Origin: Candidatus Thorarchaeota archaeon | GTDB taxonomy: Archaea; Asgardarchaeota; Thorarchaeia; Thorarchaeales; Thorarchaeaceae | Length of the DNA: 58,599 nt | Reading direction: 5' to 3' | NCBI GenBank assembly: GCA_048882485.1 | Contig: JBHLRP010000009.1 | Location: forward strand, 16,118 to 74,716 | Shown here: positions 26,267-58,599 of the stretch, in pieces | Layout of the letters: each line of letters begins with the position of its first letter | How positions within the stretch are numbered: position 1 is the first letter of the stretch | The notes under the pieces: model-generated | What the model saw: the letters and a program-made list of their open reading frames with translations, nothing else | The model's database searches: none | What the model was told of the DNA's origin: nothing | Made by a program: the position numbers and the translations under genes

Positions 26267-26333
26267 TTCTGCGGATACACCCGTGTCAGTAGATTGATTA
26301 GAAACGAATTAGTATGATGCCGTCATAAGACGG

Positions 26334-52877: not shown

Positions 52878-54098
52878 TTGACCTATGACGTAATAGTTGT
52901 GGGTGCTGGTCCGGCTGGCTCTATTACTGCCCATGATTGTGCTAAAGCTGGACTCAAGACGCTTCTATTAGAGAAGTCAAAGCATCCTAGAGAGAAGCCT
53001 TGCGGTGGGGCTGTTATGTACAGAGGGCTTCATATTTTGCGAGGTAAGTTGCCTGTTGGTCTTGTCGAACGACGTATTACTGGTCTTAGGTTCATTCTTC
53101 CAAGTGGCGATGCAGCTGAATTTTCCTCTGAGAAGTTGATTGGAATAACGGTGTTCAGAGAGCGTTTCGATGAGTTCCTTGCAAAGAGGGCTGTGGAAGC
53201 AGGTGCAGAGATAAAGGAGTTGACAAAGGTCAAACACGCATCCACTGGGCCAAAGAATGCGGTAGTTCAGACAGCAGATGGTCAGGAAATCAGGGGTCGC
53301 TATCTTGTCGGCGCAGATGGAGTAAATTCTGTAGTGGCCAAATCCTTAGGTCTCAGGCCAGCAAGGAAAAACCTCAATCGCGTTGGTCTTGGAATGGAGA
53401 GCGACTTCCATGCGGGCGAAGAAGGAGTTCTGACTGCTACGAACGGCAAACCATCCATTCTTGAGATTGTACCAGTGGAAGGCCGAGTGGCTTATGGATG
53501 GATGTTTCCGAAAAGGGAACACCTCTGTATCGGAATCGCTGGGGCTGCAGTGCACATGTATCCGCTTCGACCAGCATTTGACGCCTTTTGGAAGAAAATA
53601 GAGCAAAGAATCGGAATCCCACTCAAACTAGAGAAACGTCGAGTGCATTTCCTTGGTGCTGATGGTGTGTCAAGCAGAAATGTCACGGATCGAGCTCTCC
53701 TTGTTGGAGATGCAGCTGGTTTTGTTGACCCAATGATGGGTGAAGGCATTGCTTATGCTATGAAATCGGGCATCCATGCAGCAGATGTTATTGCTAGAGC
53801 TGCAGAGTTTGGTCGTTACGATAGCCACTATCTTGAGCAATACCATCGCCTCTGCAAGAGAGAGTTCGAAGCAAACTTTGCAATGGCCGAGTGGGCTGGA
53901 CTAAGGGGGACCACTTTTGCTGAAACCGTCCTTAAGACAGCGGCATCGTATCATCTCGCTTCAGATATTCTGGCGAAGCTTGCTAGAGGCGAAATTGGCT
54001 ACTCGGCAATTCCATATACTATACTCAAAGATCTCCCACGAGAGCTGCCAAGATTTCTTAAACAACAGGTGCGGTCAAGGCTGAATCATTCCTCCTGA
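52878..54098 (+). CDS. Geranylgeranyl reductase family FAD oxidoreductase
   Basis: VVGAGPAG, KPCGG, GADG, YGWMFPK, GDAAGFVDP..GEGI. Confidence 0.93.
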   Translation: MTYDVIVVGAGPAGSITAHDCAKAGLKTLLLEKSKHPREKPCGGAVMYRGLHILRGKLPVGLVERRITGLRFILPSGDAAEFSSEKLIGITVFRERFDEFLAKRAVEAGAEIKELTKVKHASTGPKNAVVQTADGQEIRGRYLVGADGVNSVVAKSLGLRPARKNLNRVGLGMESDFHAGEEGVLTATNGKPSILEIVPVEGRVAYGWMFPKREHLCIGIAGAAVHMYPLRPAFDAFWKKIEQRIGIPLKLEKRRVHFLGADGVSSRNVTDRALLVGDAAGFVDPMMGEGIAYAMKSGIHAADVIARAAEFGRYDSHYLEQYHRLCKREFEANFAMAEWAGLRGTTFAETVLKTAASYHLASDILAKLARGEIGYSAIPYTILKDLPRELPRFLKQQVRSRLNHSS

Positions 54099-54128
54099 AA
54101 AGGTTCATAGGGCCGGAAGGAAGGCTGG

Positions 54129-55148
54129 GTGTCGGACTGTGGAAGAATGAGAGTCACGTGGGCCATTCTGATGCTTCTAATAATTCCCCTCTCAAGTAGA
54201 AGCGCGCAGCAGGTCAGTTACGTTCCAGAATTCGATGGAACGAACGCTATGTTTCATCTATTAGCACAATGTGATTTTGGGTCTAGACCGCCCGGTTCTG
54301 ACAATCTATCCCGGTGTAGAGGGTACATTGTTGATACTCTGGAGAGTTATGGATGGAATACAACTCTCCAGAACTTCACATACCGGGATGTTTCGTGCGC
54401 CAATATTATTGCATGGTACGGTCCAATACGGAATGGCACAGTGATTTTGGGTGCACATTACGATACACGCCCTTTTGCAGATAATGACCCAGACCCTGCG
54501 AATCGAAGCAGACCTGTCTTGGGAGCTAATGATGGAGCCAGTGGAACCGCAGTGCTTCTTGAGATGGCGCGTGTATTGCCTATCGAGGTCAGAGATGAAG
54601 TAGAACTGGTCTTCCTTGACGCTGAGGATTCAGGTTACATAGATGGCTGGGATTGGATTGTTGGTTCAACCTACTACGTTGATCAGCTAACTCCCAGTCG
54701 AATATCCACAATTAGGTCCATGATTCTCCTCGATATGATTGGGGACAGTGAACTCCGCCTCCAACGTGAACTAGGCTCCACAAGATCTCTTCAAGACGTG
54801 ATTTGGTCTGGGGCAGCAGACATGGGTCATCAGGACACGTTTCTAGATTCGCTTGGAGCAACTATTCTTGATGATCATCGTCCGTTCCTGGATGTTGGGA
54901 TTCCTGCTGTGGACATAATTCATCATAATCCATTCCCCTCGACTTGGCATACGGTTGATGATATTCCTGAGAGATGCAGTGCTGAGAGTCTGCAGGTAGT
55001 AGGAGAAGTTGTGGAAACCCATTTAGTGACTCAATCTGGAATGACAACCTCCTTCCTTCCTGACTTTCCAGTCAGCTACTACATAGCAATCTTGAGCGTT
55101 GTTGGAGTTGCAGCTCTATTCGTGTATAGTCGCTTGAAGAAAGGATGA
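54129..55148 (+). CDS. M28 peptidase / glutaminyl cyclase-like, signal peptide and C-terminal TM anchor
   Basis: GAHYDTR, GANDGASG, DAED, DMIGD, DDHRPF, WHT. Confidence 0.9.
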   Translation: MSDCGRMRVTWAILMLLIIPLSSRSAQQVSYVPEFDGTNAMFHLLAQCDFGSRPPGSDNLSRCRGYIVDTLESYGWNTTLQNFTYRDVSCANIIAWYGPIRNGTVILGAHYDTRPFADNDPDPANRSRPVLGANDGASGTAVLLEMARVLPIEVRDEVELVFLDAEDSGYIDGWDWIVGSTYYVDQLTPSRISTIRSMILLDMIGDSELRLQRELGSTRSLQDVIWSGAADMGHQDTFLDSLGATILDDHRPFLDVGIPAVDIIHHNPFPSTWHTVDDIPERCSAESLQVVGEVVETHLVTQSGMTTSFLPDFPVSYYIAILSVVGVAALFVYSRLKKG

Positions 55149-55214
55149 TGTTACACACATTTTAGAGGAAGTGATAGAATAACCCTCTGAAAGTCCTCCT
55201 CAGGGTGAATAAGG

Positions 55215-56105
55215 TTGAAGAAAACCCTCCTTTTCAGGCCTACTGAAACTCAAATTCCACCACTAACATGCATGGCAGTGGACCCTCGAGGAAAGCGCAT
55301 TGCTTGTGGCACAATGGACTCACAAATCTTCCTTCTTGATTCAATATCTGGAAATCAAAAACGGATACTGAAGGGACATGAAGCTGCTGTATCTGCTGTG
55401 TCTTTCATTGATGGGGGAAAAGGACTGGTATCAACAAGCTGGGACTGCACAACACGTAGATGGACCTCGACTGGACCTGCCAAAGACATACCCGTACTTC
55501 GGCACAATTCCGAGGTCAAGGCACTAACTGTTGGAACTGAAAAGGCCAGGGGTGCTGCTGGCACGCGAGATGGAGAAGTCAAGGTGTTTTATACTAACAG
55601 CATGAGGAACTACAGAAACATACAGGCCCACAGAACCGATGTATCAGGTCTTGTATTCGCACGTGAAGAGTCTGTGCTTGTGACATCTTCTTGGGACGGA
55701 GAATGTAAGCTCTTTGACCTCAGTAGTTTTGAATTTCTAGTCGCGATCGCAAAACAGAAAGAAAGAATCAGGTCAATAGCAGTGACACACGACAGTTCGA
55801 AAGTCTTTCTCGGATTGCACAATGGCGTCATTCTTTCAATCGACCCTGAGAACCCAAAGGAAGTCATCGAAATGACAAGTCATTCAGATATAGTGACTTC
55901 TCTCGCAATTGACCCATCCAACACGTATCTTGCATCTGGAAGTTGGGACAGGTCTGTCAAGGTTTGGTCAATCAAAAAGCGAAAAGTGAAGAATCAGGAT
56001 CGCTTGCTGACGGGAATTTCATCCATAGGATGGAATCCCAAAGGCTCAGGGTTTTATACAACTGATTATTCAGGCGCATTGACATTTTGGGATTATGAAA
56101 CGTAG
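55215..56105 (+). CDS. WD40 repeat beta-propeller protein
   Basis: GH...STSWD, AH...TSSWDG, SH...ASGSWDRSVKVW, terminal FWD. Confidence 0.92.
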   Translation: MKKTLLFRPTETQIPPLTCMAVDPRGKRIACGTMDSQIFLLDSISGNQKRILKGHEAAVSAVSFIDGGKGLVSTSWDCTTRRWTSTGPAKDIPVLRHNSEVKALTVGTEKARGAAGTRDGEVKVFYTNSMRNYRNIQAHRTDVSGLVFAREESVLVTSSWDGECKLFDLSSFEFLVAIAKQKERIRSIAVTHDSSKVFLGLHNGVILSIDPENPKEVIEMTSHSDIVTSLAIDPSNTYLASGSWDRSVKVWSIKKRKVKNQDRLLTGISSIGWNPKGSGFYTTDYSGALTFWDYET

Positions 56106-56121
56106 CCAGAAAGCTAGGGTC

Positions 56122-56664
56122 TCAGTTCTCAATGCGAATGTCAATGTCCATGTATCCTTCCTTGTTCCAAGTAAGTCTGACTCTTCCATATGTTATTTTT
56201 CCACGAACAATTGACTCGAGACTCTCTATCACCCGATTCCGACTTCTTTTGTCGAATGGTATTGGCACTTTTTCCCTATCTACCGTCTGCAGATGCACTC
56301 CCTTCTCGTTGACTGACACAATTGGTTGAGAGAAAATCATCCTTCCTCCTCTGAAGACAGGGGCCTTGTCACGCATACTCCTTACAGTCTGGGCCAATCT
56401 CCGGTGCTCTCTGACTTCTCCCCATGCAGTCTTGACAACATCCCTCATATACTGATGTCTTTGGTCAAATTGGCTAGAGATTTCTTCCTCGAGAACTTCG
56501 AAAGCCTTCCTACCTGATGAGATGTGATTCTTTAAGATGGCTCTAATGACGTAGTTGACTGCCTTCGAATATCTGTCAAATTCCAAGTCAATCTTGTCTT
56601 GCTTCTCTCTACTCAAAGTGACACTAGTGAGCTTCAGAATCTCGGATTTCGAGTCAGATGTCAT
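56122..56664 (-). CDS. TnpB/Cas12f-like N-terminal (WED-REC) module without RuvC
   Basis: Y.KAVNYVI, helical REC-like segment, K.P.F, final beta strands GRVRL...GYMDIDI; stops before the expected RuvC-I G.D.G. Confidence 0.62.
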   Translation of the reverse strand: MTSDSKSEILKLTSVTLSREKQDKIDLEFDRYSKAVNYVIRAILKNHISSGRKAFEVLEEEISSQFDQRHQYMRDVVKTAWGEVREHRRLAQTVRSMRDKAPVFRGGRMIFSQPIVSVNEKGVHLQTVDREKVPIPFDKRSRNRVIESLESIVRGKITYGRVRLTWNKEGYMDIDIRIEN

Positions 56665-56719
56665 TTTGACGCGAGTCGGGTGAATTGCTTCTCACTAATC
56701 AATCTAACCTGACAAGGTT

Positions 56720-57742
56720 TTAGAGTCGCTGGGCTATGAACTGTGCCTCTCCTATACTCCTCTGAACTCCCTTCATTGTGAACTCGAACGCGCCATAACG
56801 CACAAGAATGTTCTCATAGAAAACTGGCTCATTCTCCTTGAGTTCTTGAACGAAGCTTGTCTGGTCAACCTCAAACTTTCCTGCGAGTGCCATTAATGCT
56901 CTCCCGATGCTGTCCACGGCTCTTCGCATTTCGAGTACAGCGAGCTCATAGTCTCCGGAGAGTGTACAATTCATTGCACCATGATACTCCCGCTGAGCTC
57001 TTGTTAGTAGGTCTGTTGCATACTCGTCAACTGTTCCCTCACCAAAGCGTCCCTCTGCTATCCCAATCCATTCCTCAAGCTCTCCTAGGGTTTCCATGAG
57101 ATCTTCTTCTTCCATACCTTTTAGCTTGAAGGTTCGGAGAAAGAGGGGATATGCCAATGGATCCAAGAGTCGTATCTCTGTGAGAACCTCTGACGGCTTC
57201 ATTATTGAAAAGTAGTTATTCTTCATCACAATGACCCTTCCAAGATCGAAGAGGGCACTGCGTAGTTCATGGATTGCACTGATTGTGTCTTCCGCCTCAG
57301 CTGCTTTTGTAGCATTGTTCAGTGCCAGCATGGCCCGCTGCTTCATATTGTCGATTGCATCTTCAGACCATACAAAGTTCGCTGCTGTCTTCTGCCACTT
57401 TTTCAGCATTCCTTTCTTATCATGGACTACCTTGGCATTCCTCAACATGGCAACAATCTGTGCAACGCGCAATGCATCACTTGTTTTCCCTTCAAGCACC
57501 TCTTCAATCCCTAATGGAGTGATGAAGGTCATATCGACACGTATGCCCTTATGCTCAGCCAGGAGCGGAGCTGGAGACTCCACGTCATCCCAGATTACTC
57601 CGATATTCAGATCCGAGTTGGCAGTTATTGTGCCGCGCGCAAATGAACCATAGACAAAGATTCCTTTCACACTGTCGTGTTTCTTCCACTCATTCACTGT
57701 ATCATCCAGTGCTGTATTGAACTTCTTCTGTAGGTCGAACAC
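56720..57742 (-). CDS. Minimal nucleotidyltransferase fused to two HEPN/substrate-binding-like helical repeats
   Basis: VYGSFARG....SDLN; repeats RA...L..A......D...A..ELR.A and RA..EY..A.....GDYELA..EMRRA. Confidence 0.78.
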   Translation of the reverse strand: MFDLQKKFNTALDDTVNEWKKHDSVKGIFVYGSFARGTITANSDLNIGVIWDDVESPAPLLAEHKGIRVDMTFITPLGIEEVLEGKTSDALRVAQIVAMLRNAKVVHDKKGMLKKWQKTAANFVWSEDAIDNMKQRAMLALNNATKAAEAEDTISAIHELRSALFDLGRVIVMKNNYFSIMKPSEVLTEIRLLDPLAYPLFLRTFKLKGMEEEDLMETLGELEEWIGIAEGRFGEGTVDEYATDLLTRAQREYHGAMNCTLSGDYELAVLEMRRAVDSIGRALMALAGKFEVDQTSFVQELKENEPVFYENILVRYGAFEFTMKGVQRSIGEAQFIAQRL

Positions 57743-57883
57743 GACTTCTCCTCCTCATCTTGTATACTATTTCGACTTGAGTCAGTATTTGCAGGGGCTT
57801 GTCAATAAAGCTATCTAGTGGAAGTATTCGCCCGTGGGAAATAATAGGAAGGAATGCGACCAGTGAAATCGGAGTTGTAGTCA

Positions 57884-58588
57884 GTGACCCGACTAGATGG
57901 ACGTGCAAATGACGCTCTCAGACCCGTTGAGATTGTACGTGACTTTCTCAAGTATCCCGAGGGTTCAGTACTGATAAGCACTGGAGAAACCAAAGTGATA
58001 TGTACAGCCACCCTGGAAGAGGGCGTTCCAGGTTGGCTCAATAATCAAGGGCAGGGGTGGGTCACGGCTGAATATGCGATGCTCCCCAGAGCCACAGAAG
58101 ACCGTACTAATAGAAACAGAATGAGCGGTCGGGGTGCTGAGATTCAGAGGCTCATTGGTCGGTCTCTGCGTAGTGCTGTCGACATGAAAAGACTAGGTGA
58201 GAACACCATCAGGATAGACTGTGACGTGATTCAAGCAGATGGAGGCACAAGAACCTGTTCGATAACCGGAGCATATGTAGCTCTCTGCGATGCTCTTCAA
58301 TATATGATTGACATGGACATGATCCAAGAAGCCCCAATCCTTGGTCATGTTGCTGCTGTGAGTGTGGGCGTTATGAAGGGTGATCTGCTTCTCGACCTCT
58401 GCTATAAGGAGGATGCCCATGCAGATGTTGACATGAACGTAGTCATGCGCGACGACGAATTCGTTGAGGTGCAGGGCACAGGTGAGGGCGCAACTTTCGC
58501 GAGAGTTGACCTCGACAAACTGCTTGACCTTGCGTCCAAAGGCATTCGAGAACTGATGGAAATTCAGAAGAAAGCACTTTCTGGATAG
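57884..58588 (+). CDS. rph: Ribonuclease PH, bacterial type
   Basis: R.DGR, EGSVL, GWVTAEYAMLPRAT, EIQRLIGRSLR, DCDVIQADGGTRT, DLCY.ED..A.VDMNVV. Confidence 0.95.
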   Translation: MTRLDGRANDALRPVEIVRDFLKYPEGSVLISTGETKVICTATLEEGVPGWLNNQGQGWVTAEYAMLPRATEDRTNRNRMSGRGAEIQRLIGRSLRSAVDMKRLGENTIRIDCDVIQADGGTRTCSITGAYVALCDALQYMIDMDMIQEAPILGHVAAVSVGVMKGDLLLDLCYKEDAHADVDMNVVMRDDEFVEVQGTGEGATFARVDLDKLLDLASKGIRELMEIQKKALSG

Positions 58589-58599
58589 ATAGAATCTAT

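What the first reader, a model, noticed from the sequence alone, without database searches (positions are those of the whole stretch)
56122..56664. TnpB/Cas12f-like protein cut cleanly before RuvC: candidate domesticated nuclease-free module
Seen: an intact 180-aa ORF that follows the archaeal IS200/IS605 TnpB N-terminal pattern and ends at the last WED-like strand; the convergent WD40 stop is 16 bp away; no RuvC remnant, tnpA, IS-end hairpin or array. Known: WED/REC recognise the TAM and guide duplex; described dead derivatives (TldR, dCas12f) keep an inactivated RuvC. Inference: a domesticated nucleic-acid-binding module, or simply a remnant. The family call is by eye.
Basis: partly seen in the sequence, partly recalled or inferred. 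Interest (0 to 1): 0.7.

Follow-up and report, generated by a model that had tools for sequence, protein, structure and literature searches.

The report
Nuclease-free TnpB recognition lobe, domesticated
A small basic protein of one family of Asgard archaea has the DNA/RNA-recognition half of the transposon nuclease TnpB/Cas12f with the cutting half wholly gone, and it has been kept as a single-copy, fixed-position gene, so it is a repurposed part rather than a wreck.

Summary
Window 56122-56664 (-) is an intact 180-aa ORF whose stop lies 16 bp from the convergent WD40 stop. A confident model (pLDDT 91) matches only the WED+REC lobe of Cas12f/TnpB. Z reaches 15.4, and in an unbiased search of 48,161 PDB chains the top 32 hits are all Cas12/TnpB/Fanzor. 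The model ends where ISDra2 TnpB's WED domain ends (residue ~175); RuvC starts at 185.

It is not a remnant:
- It occurs in 79 of 85 species genomes of its own GTDB family (all 16 genera) and in 0 of 315 other Asgard genomes.
- It is single-copy and sits in the same place in every locus checked (RNase PH | NTase -> this gene | <- WD40 <- M28 peptidase).
- Length is 178-240 aa.
- dN/dS is about 0.15.
- Mobile full-length TnpBs in the same genomes are patchy and multicopy (0-42). Fourteen genomes that carry this gene have none.

No cis guide RNA, tnpA, IS ends or array was found.

Best reading: an exapted, guide-independent nucleic-acid-binding module. That function is inferred, not shown. It is a new variant of TnpB exaptation; TldR, dCas12f and Cas12k all keep a RuvC fold. 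First readers of this scan noted look-alikes in two other genomes.

The parts
56122..56664 (-). 180-aa WED-REC-only protein (CDS including stop), a TnpB/Cas12f recognition lobe without RuvC or TNB
   Evidence: ORF. Model pLDDT 91.4. Fold matches. Conservation and selection.
56623..56646 (-). Residues 7-14: first WED beta-strand, preceding the REC insertion
   Evidence: DSSP on the model. The topology matches the ISDra2 TnpB description, with REC inserted between WED beta1 and beta2.
56371..56610 (-). Residues 19-98: REC helical bundle of four helices (19-45, 51-65, 70-93, 95-98). In some genera a ~50-aa insertion sits after about residue 65.
56128..56343 (-). Residues 108-179: the rest of the WED OB-like barrel (six strands plus flanking helices 139-153). 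It carries the invariant P136, D138, K139, S141, N143 and R161, R163 in the basic stretch PFDKRSRNR.
   Evidence: The model end aligns to ISDra2 TnpB residue 175, the end of WED.
56106..56121 (.). 16-bp gap between the convergent stops; no space for a RuvC remnant or a 3' guide RNA gene
   Evidence: In relatives the gap runs from -26 (overlap) to +61 bp in most loci.
56694..56707 (-). Conserved upstream element TTAGATTGATTAG(T/G) in the 55-bp NTase/WED-REC spacer, about 30-43 nt before the ATG. Candidate gene-specific promoter or operator.
   Evidence: The core ATTGATTA is exact in 40 of 47 loci, at -31 to -44 in 39 of them. It is not a general promoter word in this genome. About 25 of 33 exact 13-mer hits in 86 genomes lie in this spacer, by my comparison with the locus coordinates.
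56720..57742 (-). 340-aa Pol-beta-type nucleotidyltransferase with a helical C-terminal half (KNTase/ANT(4')-like fold), always immediately upstream on the same strand
   Evidence: Pfam/NCBIfam. Model pLDDT 89.6 and Foldseek hits. Adjacency in all loci.
55215..56105 (+). 296-aa WD40 beta-propeller, the convergent downstream neighbour. It is absent in the deepest-branching relatives.
57884..58588 (+). RNase PH (TIGR01966, 347 bits), divergent from the NTase; part of the conserved block
54129..55148 (+). M28 peptidase; part of the conserved block

Best explanation
SHOWN. The gene encodes a stand-alone recognition lobe (WED OB-barrel with the REC helical bundle inserted after its first strand) of the TnpB/Cas12 superfamily. 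The nuclease lobe (RuvC plus TNB zinc finger) is absent entirely, not merely inactivated. The gene is immobile, single-copy, vertically inherited and under purifying selection. It is present in essentially every genome of one GTDB family of Asgard archaea; source records label most members Thorarchaeota.

INFERRED. A TnpB-type gene that landed downstream of a KNTase-like nucleotidyltransferase gene at or before the base of this family lost its nuclease half, and the remaining lobe was kept for a host function.

The most likely mechanism is that the basic protein (pI about 10) binds nucleic acid without cutting it and without a cis-encoded guide RNA. In ISDra2 TnpB the WED/REC cleft holds the TAM duplex on its own, and WED contributes part of the RNA-binding surface. 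By analogy this protein would read a short duplex motif or a structured nucleic acid, and act as a regulator or adaptor rather than as an RNA-guided enzyme. A candidate target is the locus-specific conserved element TTAGATTGATTAGG in front of its own gene, which contains TTGAT, the TAM of ISDra2 TnpB. That would mean autoregulation; it is speculative.
For: Fold:
- The model has pLDDT 91.4 and was built from orthologues only, without templates.
- Foldseek's top 50 hits are all Cas12f, TnpB, Cas12k or other Cas12 types.
- VIA-align gives Z 15.4 (SpCas12f, 170 aligned residues), 14.7 (AsCas12f), 14.0 (natural dCas12f) and 11.9 (ISDra2 TnpB, model 5-180 to chain 2-175).
- In an unbiased scan of 48,161 chains, ranks 1-32 are all Cas12/TnpB/Fanzor, and the first other fold has Z 5.2.
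- ESM-Atlas TM scores are 0.76-0.80 to archaeal TnpBs.
- Domain limits and roles in TnpB: WED 1-12 plus 117-176, REC 13-116, RuvC from 185. The TAM duplex is held by WED+REC alone, the omega-RNA scaffold by WED+RuvC, and the heteroduplex by REC+RuvC (PMC10097598).

Domestication:
- 79 of 85 family genomes carry it, across 16 of 16 genera; 0 of 315 other Asgard genomes do.
- Five of the six 'missing' genomes also lack the adjacent NTase and are 65-88% complete.
- There is one copy per genome.
- Gene order is identical in all loci, down to relatives of 31% identity.
- Lengths are 178-240 aa, and none carries RuvC.
- dN/dS is 0.07-0.22, median 0.146.
- Pairwise identities track those of the flanking genes, r = 0.85 and 0.81.

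Contrast with mobile TnpBs: the TNB domain is found 0-42 times per genome, in 47 of 61 genomes. Fourteen genomes have none, and 13 of those carry this gene at full length.

Other points:
- Basic charge: pI 9.7-10.4, 33-43 K+R.
- No cis guide: a 16-bp or overlapping 3' gap, flat synonymous-site conservation across both 3' ends, no Rfam hit.
- The upstream element is locus-specific.
Against: - Nucleic-acid binding is inferred from fold and charge only. No expression, binding or structural data exist.
- Homology to TnpB rests on a predicted structure plus weak N-terminal HMM hits. Profile-profile comparison with the Asgard genomes' own TnpBs found nothing.
- In TnpB much of the RNA scaffold is held by RuvC, so loss of RuvC may have abolished RNA binding. 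The retained lobe could instead serve as a protein-binding scaffold.
- The upstream element may be only an unusual promoter. It is missing in the deepest-branching members.
- Conserved adjacency to the NTase may be inherited gene order, not function. The sister-family genome G311 has the NTase without this gene.
Confidence: 0.6

Rival explanations
1. It is the RNA-binding partner of the adjacent nucleotidyltransferase, perhaps also of RNase PH. The WED-REC lobe would hold a structured RNA or an RNA 3' end so that the NTase can tail or repair it: an RNA 3'-end metabolism module.
For: - NTase -> WED-REC adjacency on one strand, with 36-73 bp spacers in most loci, is invariant in every locus examined down to 31% identity.
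- RNase PH is divergent from the NTase throughout.
- WED binds omega-RNA stem 4 and the pseudoknot in TnpB.
- The protein is basic.
Against: - The whole five-gene block is syntenic, so adjacency may be mere inheritance.
- The NTase exists without this gene in the sister family (G311).
- The NTase fold is closest to small-molecule ANT(4')/KNTase enzymes.
- Several lineages, this window included, have lost one catalytic Asp.
Confidence: 0.2
2. It is still RNA-guided. It would use a guide RNA encoded elsewhere in the genome, or act as the N-terminal half of a split TnpB completed in trans by a RuvC/TNB protein.
For: - All described exapted TnpB/Cas12 derivatives (TldR, dCas12f, Cas12k, Cas12m) remain RNA-guided.
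- REC lines the heteroduplex channel in TnpB.
Against: - Fourteen of 61 family genomes have no TNB-domain match; some are 91-95% complete. Thirteen of them carry this gene at full length.
- There is no 3' UTR, no synonymous constraint at the 3' end and no Rfam hit.
- In TnpB the scaffold and heteroduplex surfaces each need RuvC.
Confidence: 0.12
3. It is an inert remnant of a dead TnpB copy that happens to keep an open frame.
For: Short 'Transposase (Fragment)' clusters with the same fold (178-184 aa) exist in bacteria, so truncated TnpB N-termini are common debris.
Against: - dN/dS is about 0.15.
- The frame stays open and of conserved length across relatives down to about 29% pairwise identity.
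- 25 columns are invariant.
- It is present in 79 of 85 genomes at one fixed locus.
Confidence: 0.02
4. It is not derived from TnpB. It would be either an ancestral free-standing WED-REC protein of the kind that fused to RuvC, or a convergent OB-barrel plus helical bundle.
For: - Sequence similarity to TnpB is barely detectable.
- No RuvC-bearing sequence relative was found.
Against: - The specific topology (REC inserted after WED strand 1, seven-strand barrel with a flanking helix) and the exclusive top-32 ranking of Cas12/TnpB/Fanzor make convergence unlikely.
- Restriction to one family of one archaeal phylum, against the universal spread of TnpB, fits a late derivation.
Confidence: 0.05

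Closest known systems
TnpB of IS200/IS605 elements (e.g. ISDra2 TnpB, PDB 8exa/8h1j)
   Same: Same WED+REC lobe with collinear topology and about the same size: model 5-180 aligns to chain 2-175, Z 11.2-11.9. No zinc finger in this lobe, as in TnpB.
   Different: - No RuvC, TNB or C-terminal domain.
- No omega-RNA region, IS ends or tnpA.
- Single-copy, syntenic and vertically inherited, not mobile.
Cas12f (Un1, As, Sp, Os) recognition lobe
   Same: Best structural matches: Z 14-15.4, 165-170 residues aligned to chain residues about 1-212.
   Different: No CRISPR array, no tracrRNA and no RuvC. No cysteines, so none of the WED/REC zinc finger that Cas12f has according to PMC10097598.
TldR (TnpB-like nuclease-dead repressors) and the flagellin/DppD-associated inactivated TnpBs
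   Same: Immobilised TnpB descendants kept by the host with the nuclease function gone; stable association with host genes.
   Different: TldRs keep the RuvC fold: catalytic residues are replaced, and at most RuvC-III is truncated. They also have a long 3' UTR that encodes a guide. Here the whole nuclease lobe and the 3' UTR are absent. TldRs are bacterial or phage-borne; this protein is archaeal.
Natural dCas12f that recruits sigma-E/RNAP (PDB 9n9c, 346 aa)
   Same: Top Foldseek hit (E 1.6e-7) and Z 14.0 over model 1-180 to chain 1-212. It is another exapted, non-cutting relative.
   Different: dCas12f keeps a dead RuvC domain and a guide RNA, and works with a sigma factor. None of these is seen here.
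Short 'Transposase (Fragment)' and Pfam MJ0013-type (PF27234) N-terminal TnpB pieces in the ESM Atlas
   Same: Same fold; some have the same length, 178-184 aa, TM 0.76-0.79.
   Different: Those clusters were seen only by structure or language-model features. Whether they are pseudogene debris or conserved genes was not examined. The protein here is shown to be conserved, syntenic and under selection.

Membership tests
TnpB/Cas12 superfamily (as a fold relative) | WED OB-type beta-barrel with the REC helical bundle inserted between its first and second strands | tested here: met
   The model has beta7-14, four helices in 19-98, then six strands plus a flanking helix in 108-179. Z is 11-15 over 158-170 residues, and the top 32 of 48,161 chains are all from this superfamily. 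The topology is as described for ISDra2 TnpB.
TnpB/Cas12 superfamily (as an RNA-guided nuclease) | RuvC RNase-H-fold domain with a D-E-D catalytic triad | tested here: not met
   The protein ends at the position of ISDra2 residue ~175, and RuvC starts at 185. 16 bp follow before the WD40 stop. No member of the family is longer than 240 aa except one with a helical-repeat tail.
TnpB/Cas12 superfamily (as an RNA-guided nuclease) | TNB/zinc-finger domain (PF07282) | tested here: not met
   No Pfam hit. The protein has no cysteine. PF07282 matches in the genome lie on other contigs.
TnpB/Cas12 superfamily (as an RNA-guided nuclease) | Cis-encoded guide (omega-RNA overlapping the 3' end, or a CRISPR array/tracrRNA) | tested here: inconclusive
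   No 3' UTR, no array, no Rfam hit, and no excess synonymous conservation at the 3' ends. A trans-encoded RNA cannot be excluded.
IS200/IS605 mobile element | tnpA, LE/RE hairpins, multiple or patchy copies | tested here: not met
   No Y1 transposase in the genome. No end-like hairpins. One copy, fixed locus, 79 of 85 genomes.
TldR / nuclease-dead TnpB repressors | Retained but inactivated RuvC fold plus a guide RNA from a long 3' UTR | tested here: not met
   RuvC and the 3' UTR are both absent. The TldR description is taken from PMC10691335.
TldR / nuclease-dead TnpB repressors | Sequence-specific DNA binding that represses transcription | not testable with these tools
   Needs EMSA, ChIP or reporter assays.
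Sequence-level TnpB N-terminal domain (TIGR01765; NCBIfam Cas12f2 N-terminus) | Score above the curated cut-off | tested here: not met
   15.2 bits against a cut-off of 47.25. The hits are weak but recurrent, in 10 and 15 of 45 members, best E 7.6e-5.

The most novel reading that the evidence does not exclude
The free WED-REC lobe is a targeting subunit. It would read a short DNA motif or a structured or guide RNA and deliver the co-transcribed KNTase-like nucleotidyltransferase, and perhaps RNase PH, to specific nucleic-acid 3' ends. That would make it a TnpB-derived targeting module coupled to a non-nuclease enzyme in Asgard archaea, and the smallest natural TnpB-lineage nucleic-acid reader.
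Probability: 0.12. Interest if true: 0.9.

Novelty: new variant of a known kind. Interest (0 to 1): 0.66.

Why it matters
Exaptation of TnpB is known: Cas12 effectors, Cas12k, Cas12m, TldR and dCas12f. In every described case the RuvC fold is kept, and in the papers read here the protein stays RNA-guided. Surveys that start from RuvC/TNB-containing TnpB models would not pick up a derivative like this one.

This is a naturally selected minimal form, 180 aa of WED+REC only, fixed as a core gene of a whole family of Asgard archaea.

- If it binds DNA or RNA on its own, the recognition lobe is an autonomous functional unit. That bears on how TnpB/Cas12 assembled and decays. It would also give a very small natural scaffold for motif or RNA recognition.
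- It opens a testable question about host functions of transposon-derived proteins in the archaeal lineage closest to eukaryotes.
- If it proves to be only a structural adaptor, it remains a clean example of partial-domain domestication.

Tried and rejected
- **Pfam:** no family for the protein or for any of 45 members.
- **PDB by sequence profile:** nothing relevant.
- **PADLOC:** nothing for the protein. The NTase gave only generic NTase-motif hits.
- **Search for longer (fused) relatives** with the family alignment: none scored. This is weak evidence, as the tool itself says.
- **Profile comparison** of the family with three full-length TnpBs of the same genome, and with an alignment of TnpBs from related genomes: no similarity, probabilities below 2%. 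The mixed TnpB alignment was crude.
- **Complex prediction, NTase + this protein:** no support, score 0.00. This is no verdict either way.
- **RNA-seq:** no RNA holder was listed for the locus.
- **Rfam** on 54000-58599: no match at E <= 1.
- **Hidden omega-RNA** tested by synonymous-site conservation: flat profiles.
- **Regulon idea for the upstream element:** the exact 13-mer occurs almost only at this locus. About 25 of 33 hits in 86 genomes lie there, the reversed control gives 4, and extra sites are at chance level. A second AGATTGATTAG site in the window, at 26291, was not pursued.
- **Reading the element as an ordinary TATA box:** its words are not enriched upstream of genes in this genome, whereas TTTAAG/TTAATA-type words are enriched 5-6x. 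A gene-specific promoter is still possible.
- **Pfam PF27234 (MJ0013)** is not in the local library.
- **Residue-level mapping** of TnpB's TAM-contact residues was not possible, because model coordinates cannot be read in the script box.

Full report
**1. Observation**

Window 56122-56664 (-) holds an intact ATG-started ORF of 180 aa. The convergent WD40 ORF ends at 56105, so 16 bp separate the two stops. A 340-aa ORF ends 55 bp upstream on the same strand. The 4.6 kb around the gene contain no repeat array and no IS-end-like hairpin. The genome is 3.96 Mb in 157 contigs and 90.5% complete; it has no detectable Y1 transposase. The description is accurate.

**2. What the protein is**

Pfam gives nothing. 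NCBIfam gives weak hits of residues 16-55 to the N-terminus of the Cas12f2 model and to TIGR01765, the TnpB N-terminal domain. These hits recur in 15 and 10 of 45 family members, best E 7.6e-5.

An AlphaFold2 model was built from 45 orthologues only, without templates. It is confident, with pLDDT 91.4 and pTM 0.84. It has one strand (7-14), four helices (19-98), then six strands with a flanking helix (108-179). That is the published architecture of the TnpB recognition lobe: a seven-stranded OB-type WED barrel with the four-helix REC domain inserted between beta1 and beta2 (PMC10097598).

- Foldseek against the PDB returns only Cas12f, TnpB, Cas12k and other Cas12 types in its top 50.
- VIA-align gives Z 15.4 (SpCas12f, 170 residues), 14.7 (AsCas12f), 14.0 (natural dCas12f) and 11.9 (ISDra2 TnpB).
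- A search that does not depend on Foldseek, over 48,161 representative chains, puts Cas12/TnpB/Fanzor proteins at ranks 1-32 (Z 14.1 to 5.4). The first unrelated fold has Z 5.2.
- ESM-Atlas models of archaeal TnpBs match at TM 0.76-0.80.

Against ISDra2 TnpB the model's residues 5-180 align to chain residues 2-175. There WED ends at 176, RuvC begins at 185 and the first catalytic Asp is D191. The protein therefore stops at the WED/RuvC boundary and contains no RuvC strand. It has no cysteine, so it also has no zinc finger.

**3. Remnant or gene**

A word-indexed search found 162 relatives, all within the 99-315-aa range that search covers; the 120 listed are 110-203 aa. They are 93-47% identical, and those that carry a name are labelled Asgard, mostly Thorarchaeota. 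An exhaustive phmmer scan of 1.84 billion representatives found only 18 clusters. Apart from six short ORFs of 68-112 aa, they are 179-240 aa, plus one of 377 aa whose extra tail is helical repeats, not RuvC.

A profile search of 400 Asgard species genomes found the gene in 79 of 85 genomes of the window's own GTDB family (16 of 16 genera) and in none of 315 others.

- Five of the six genomes without it also lack the adjacent NTase and are 65-88% complete, so the locus is probably unassembled there.
- It is single-copy. The double rows are one gene split by a ~50-aa REC insertion in five genera.
- The one genome with two full copies (G328) carries the whole syntenic block twice, which points to a mixed bin.

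In all 29 + 18 species loci examined, and in the metagenomic contigs, the order is RNase PH <- | NTase -> WED-REC -> | <- WD40 <- M28 peptidase. The most divergent members (31-39% identity) keep RNase PH | NTase -> WED-REC | <- M28 and lack only the WD40 gene.

Other measures:
- ORF lengths are 178-199 aa, or 230-240 aa with the insertion.
- Nei-Gojobori dN/dS over 17 pairs with dS 0.05-1.5 is 0.07-0.22, median 0.146. The WD40 neighbour gives 0.104 and the NTase 0.047.
- Pairwise identities correlate with those of both neighbours, r = 0.85 and 0.81, as expected for vertical co-inheritance.

The TNB domain of full-length TnpB behaves like a mobile element in the same family. It occurs 0-42 times per genome, in 47 of 61 genomes. 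Fourteen genomes have no copy, some of them 91-95% complete, and 13 of those still carry the WED-REC gene at full length. That argues against a split nuclease completed in trans.

The window's genome has three full-length TnpB-like genes on other contigs. None shows sequence similarity to this family, so this is not a recent truncation of a resident copy.

In the one genome of the sister family (G311) the NTase is present, at 31% identity, but is followed by a small membrane protein. This fits acquisition of the gene at the base of the family, but one outgroup genome is thin evidence.

**4. How it most likely works**

In TnpB the TAM duplex sits in a cleft made by WED and REC alone. The omega-RNA scaffold needs WED plus RuvC, and the heteroduplex channel needs REC plus RuvC. 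A free WED-REC lobe therefore keeps a complete duplex-motif-reading cleft but only half of each RNA surface.

- The protein is strongly basic, pI 9.7-10.4.
- Its invariant residues are mostly polar or charged: K21, Q22, Y32, N37, D67, R69, Y72, D75, R95, D138, K139, S141, N143, R161, R163.
- There is no room for a 3' guide gene.
- Synonymous sites at the 3' ends of this gene and of the WD40 gene show no extra constraint.
- Rfam finds nothing.

I therefore favour a guide-independent, non-cutting nucleic-acid binder that acts as a regulator or adaptor. This step is inference, not shown.

One concrete lead is a conserved element in the NTase/WED-REC spacer, TTAGATTGATTAG(G).

- Its core ATTGATTA is exact in 40 of 47 loci, 31-44 nt before the start codon in 39 of them. 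Synonymous sites are saturated between most pairs of these loci (only 17 of 780 pairs have dS between 0.05 and 1.5).
- Its words are not enriched upstream of genes in this genome, unlike TTTAAG/TTAATA-type TATA words.
- Across 86 genomes the exact 13-mer occurs almost only at this locus: about 25 of 33 hits by coordinate comparison, against 4 for the reversed control.
- It contains TTGAT, the TAM of ISDra2 TnpB.
- It could be a gene-specific promoter, an autoregulatory operator, or a relic of the insertion site kept for another reason. The deepest-branching members lack it.

**5. The neighbour**

The 340-aa upstream protein is a Pol-beta-type nucleotidyltransferase with a helical C-terminal half. 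Its model (pLDDT 89.6) is closest to kanamycin nucleotidyltransferase/ANT(4'); HalB and LinB also match. Most family members have GS...DLD plus a third Asp. The window's protein and its closest relatives have DLN, and two other lineages have lost the first Asp. Adjacency is invariant but may be inherited order, and a complex prediction gave no verdict. RNA 3'-end work together with the NTase and RNase PH is kept as the main rival.

**6. Comparison with what is known**

The census of TnpB/Cas12 exaptations (PMC10691335) describes inactivated and immobilised TnpBs. The most reduced of them lose only RuvC-III and have long 3' UTRs for guides. TldR and the sigma-E-linked dCas12f likewise keep a dead RuvC domain and a guide RNA (PDB 9n9c is 346 aa). 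A full-text search for RuvC-lacking derivatives found no such case.

By fold this protein belongs to the TnpB/Cas12 superfamily. It fails every feature that defines the RNA-guided nuclease, the mobile element or a TldR. I file it as a new variant of TnpB exaptation, not as a member of those families.

Short clusters with the same fold exist in bacteria. Their status was not examined, so RuvC-less lobes may be more widespread.

First-reader notes of this scan flag look-alike ORFs in two other genomes. They are unchecked, but they agree with the distribution measured here.

**7. Verdict**

The biochemical function is open. Confidence that it is a functional TnpB-derived WED-REC protein is about 0.9. 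Confidence in the proposed guide-independent binding mechanism is about 0.4-0.5.

Noticed in passing
window 56694-56707 (-): A conserved non-coding element TTAGATTGATTAG(G) lies in front of the WED-REC gene. The core 8-mer is exact in 40 of 47 loci across genera whose synonymous sites are saturated. It is not a general promoter word, it is almost unique to this locus in 86 genomes, and it contains TTGAT, the ISDra2 TnpB TAM.
   Followed up: partly
window 56720-57742 (-), residues 43-46: The NTase's metal-binding motif reads S-D-L-N here and in three close relatives. Most of the family has S-D-L-D, and two other lineages have lost the first Asp (STLD, SVLD). Catalysis may therefore be relaxed or lost in some lineages.
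   Followed up: partly
L050-L054, L056, L058 (species genomes G329, G318, G323, G334, G332, G328, G325): In five genera the WED-REC protein is 230-240 aa because of a ~50-aa insertion between REC helices 2 and 3. REC expansion is the usual route of Cas12 growth.
   Followed up: no
L094:5001-6134 (P0133, 377 aa): One deep-branching orthologue carries a ~190-aa C-terminal tail of helical repeats (recurring DRPWE/NPWR-type units) instead of ending at the WED domain. The synteny is the same.
   Followed up: no
L091, L092, L094, L095, L045: The deepest-branching orthologues (31-39% identity) lack the WD40 gene between the WED-REC gene and the M28 peptidase. The WD40 gene was therefore inserted later.
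   Followed up: partly
G000 contigs C58, C99, C50 (L039, L041, L040): The same genome has three full-length TnpB-like genes (404, 471 and 553 aa) but no Y1 TnpA. Copy number in related genomes ranges from 0 to 42.
   Followed up: partly
G328 contigs C82 and C67 (L055, L056): This species genome carries the whole five-gene block twice, with different variants (199 aa and 234 aa). It is probably a bin that mixes two genera, not a duplication.
   Followed up: no
P0028, P0031, P0034, P0099: Some members are labelled Hermodarchaeota, Hodarchaeota or Sifarchaeia in NCBI. They are 50-61% identical to the query, and the GTDB-based search finds the gene only in one family. The submitter labels probably differ from the GTDB placement.
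   Followed up: no
window 56068-56086 and 56137-56155: A 19-nt inverted repeat (79% complementary) spans the two convergent stop codons. It may be a shared terminator-like hairpin.
   Followed up: no
window 26291-26301 (+): A second exact AGATTGATTAG lies 43 nt upstream of a 217-aa ORF whose C-terminus looks to me like a helix-turn-helix regulator (no family search was run), in a divergent intergenic region next to a 317-aa transporter-like membrane protein. Genome-wide counts are near chance, so it may be coincidence.
   Followed up: no
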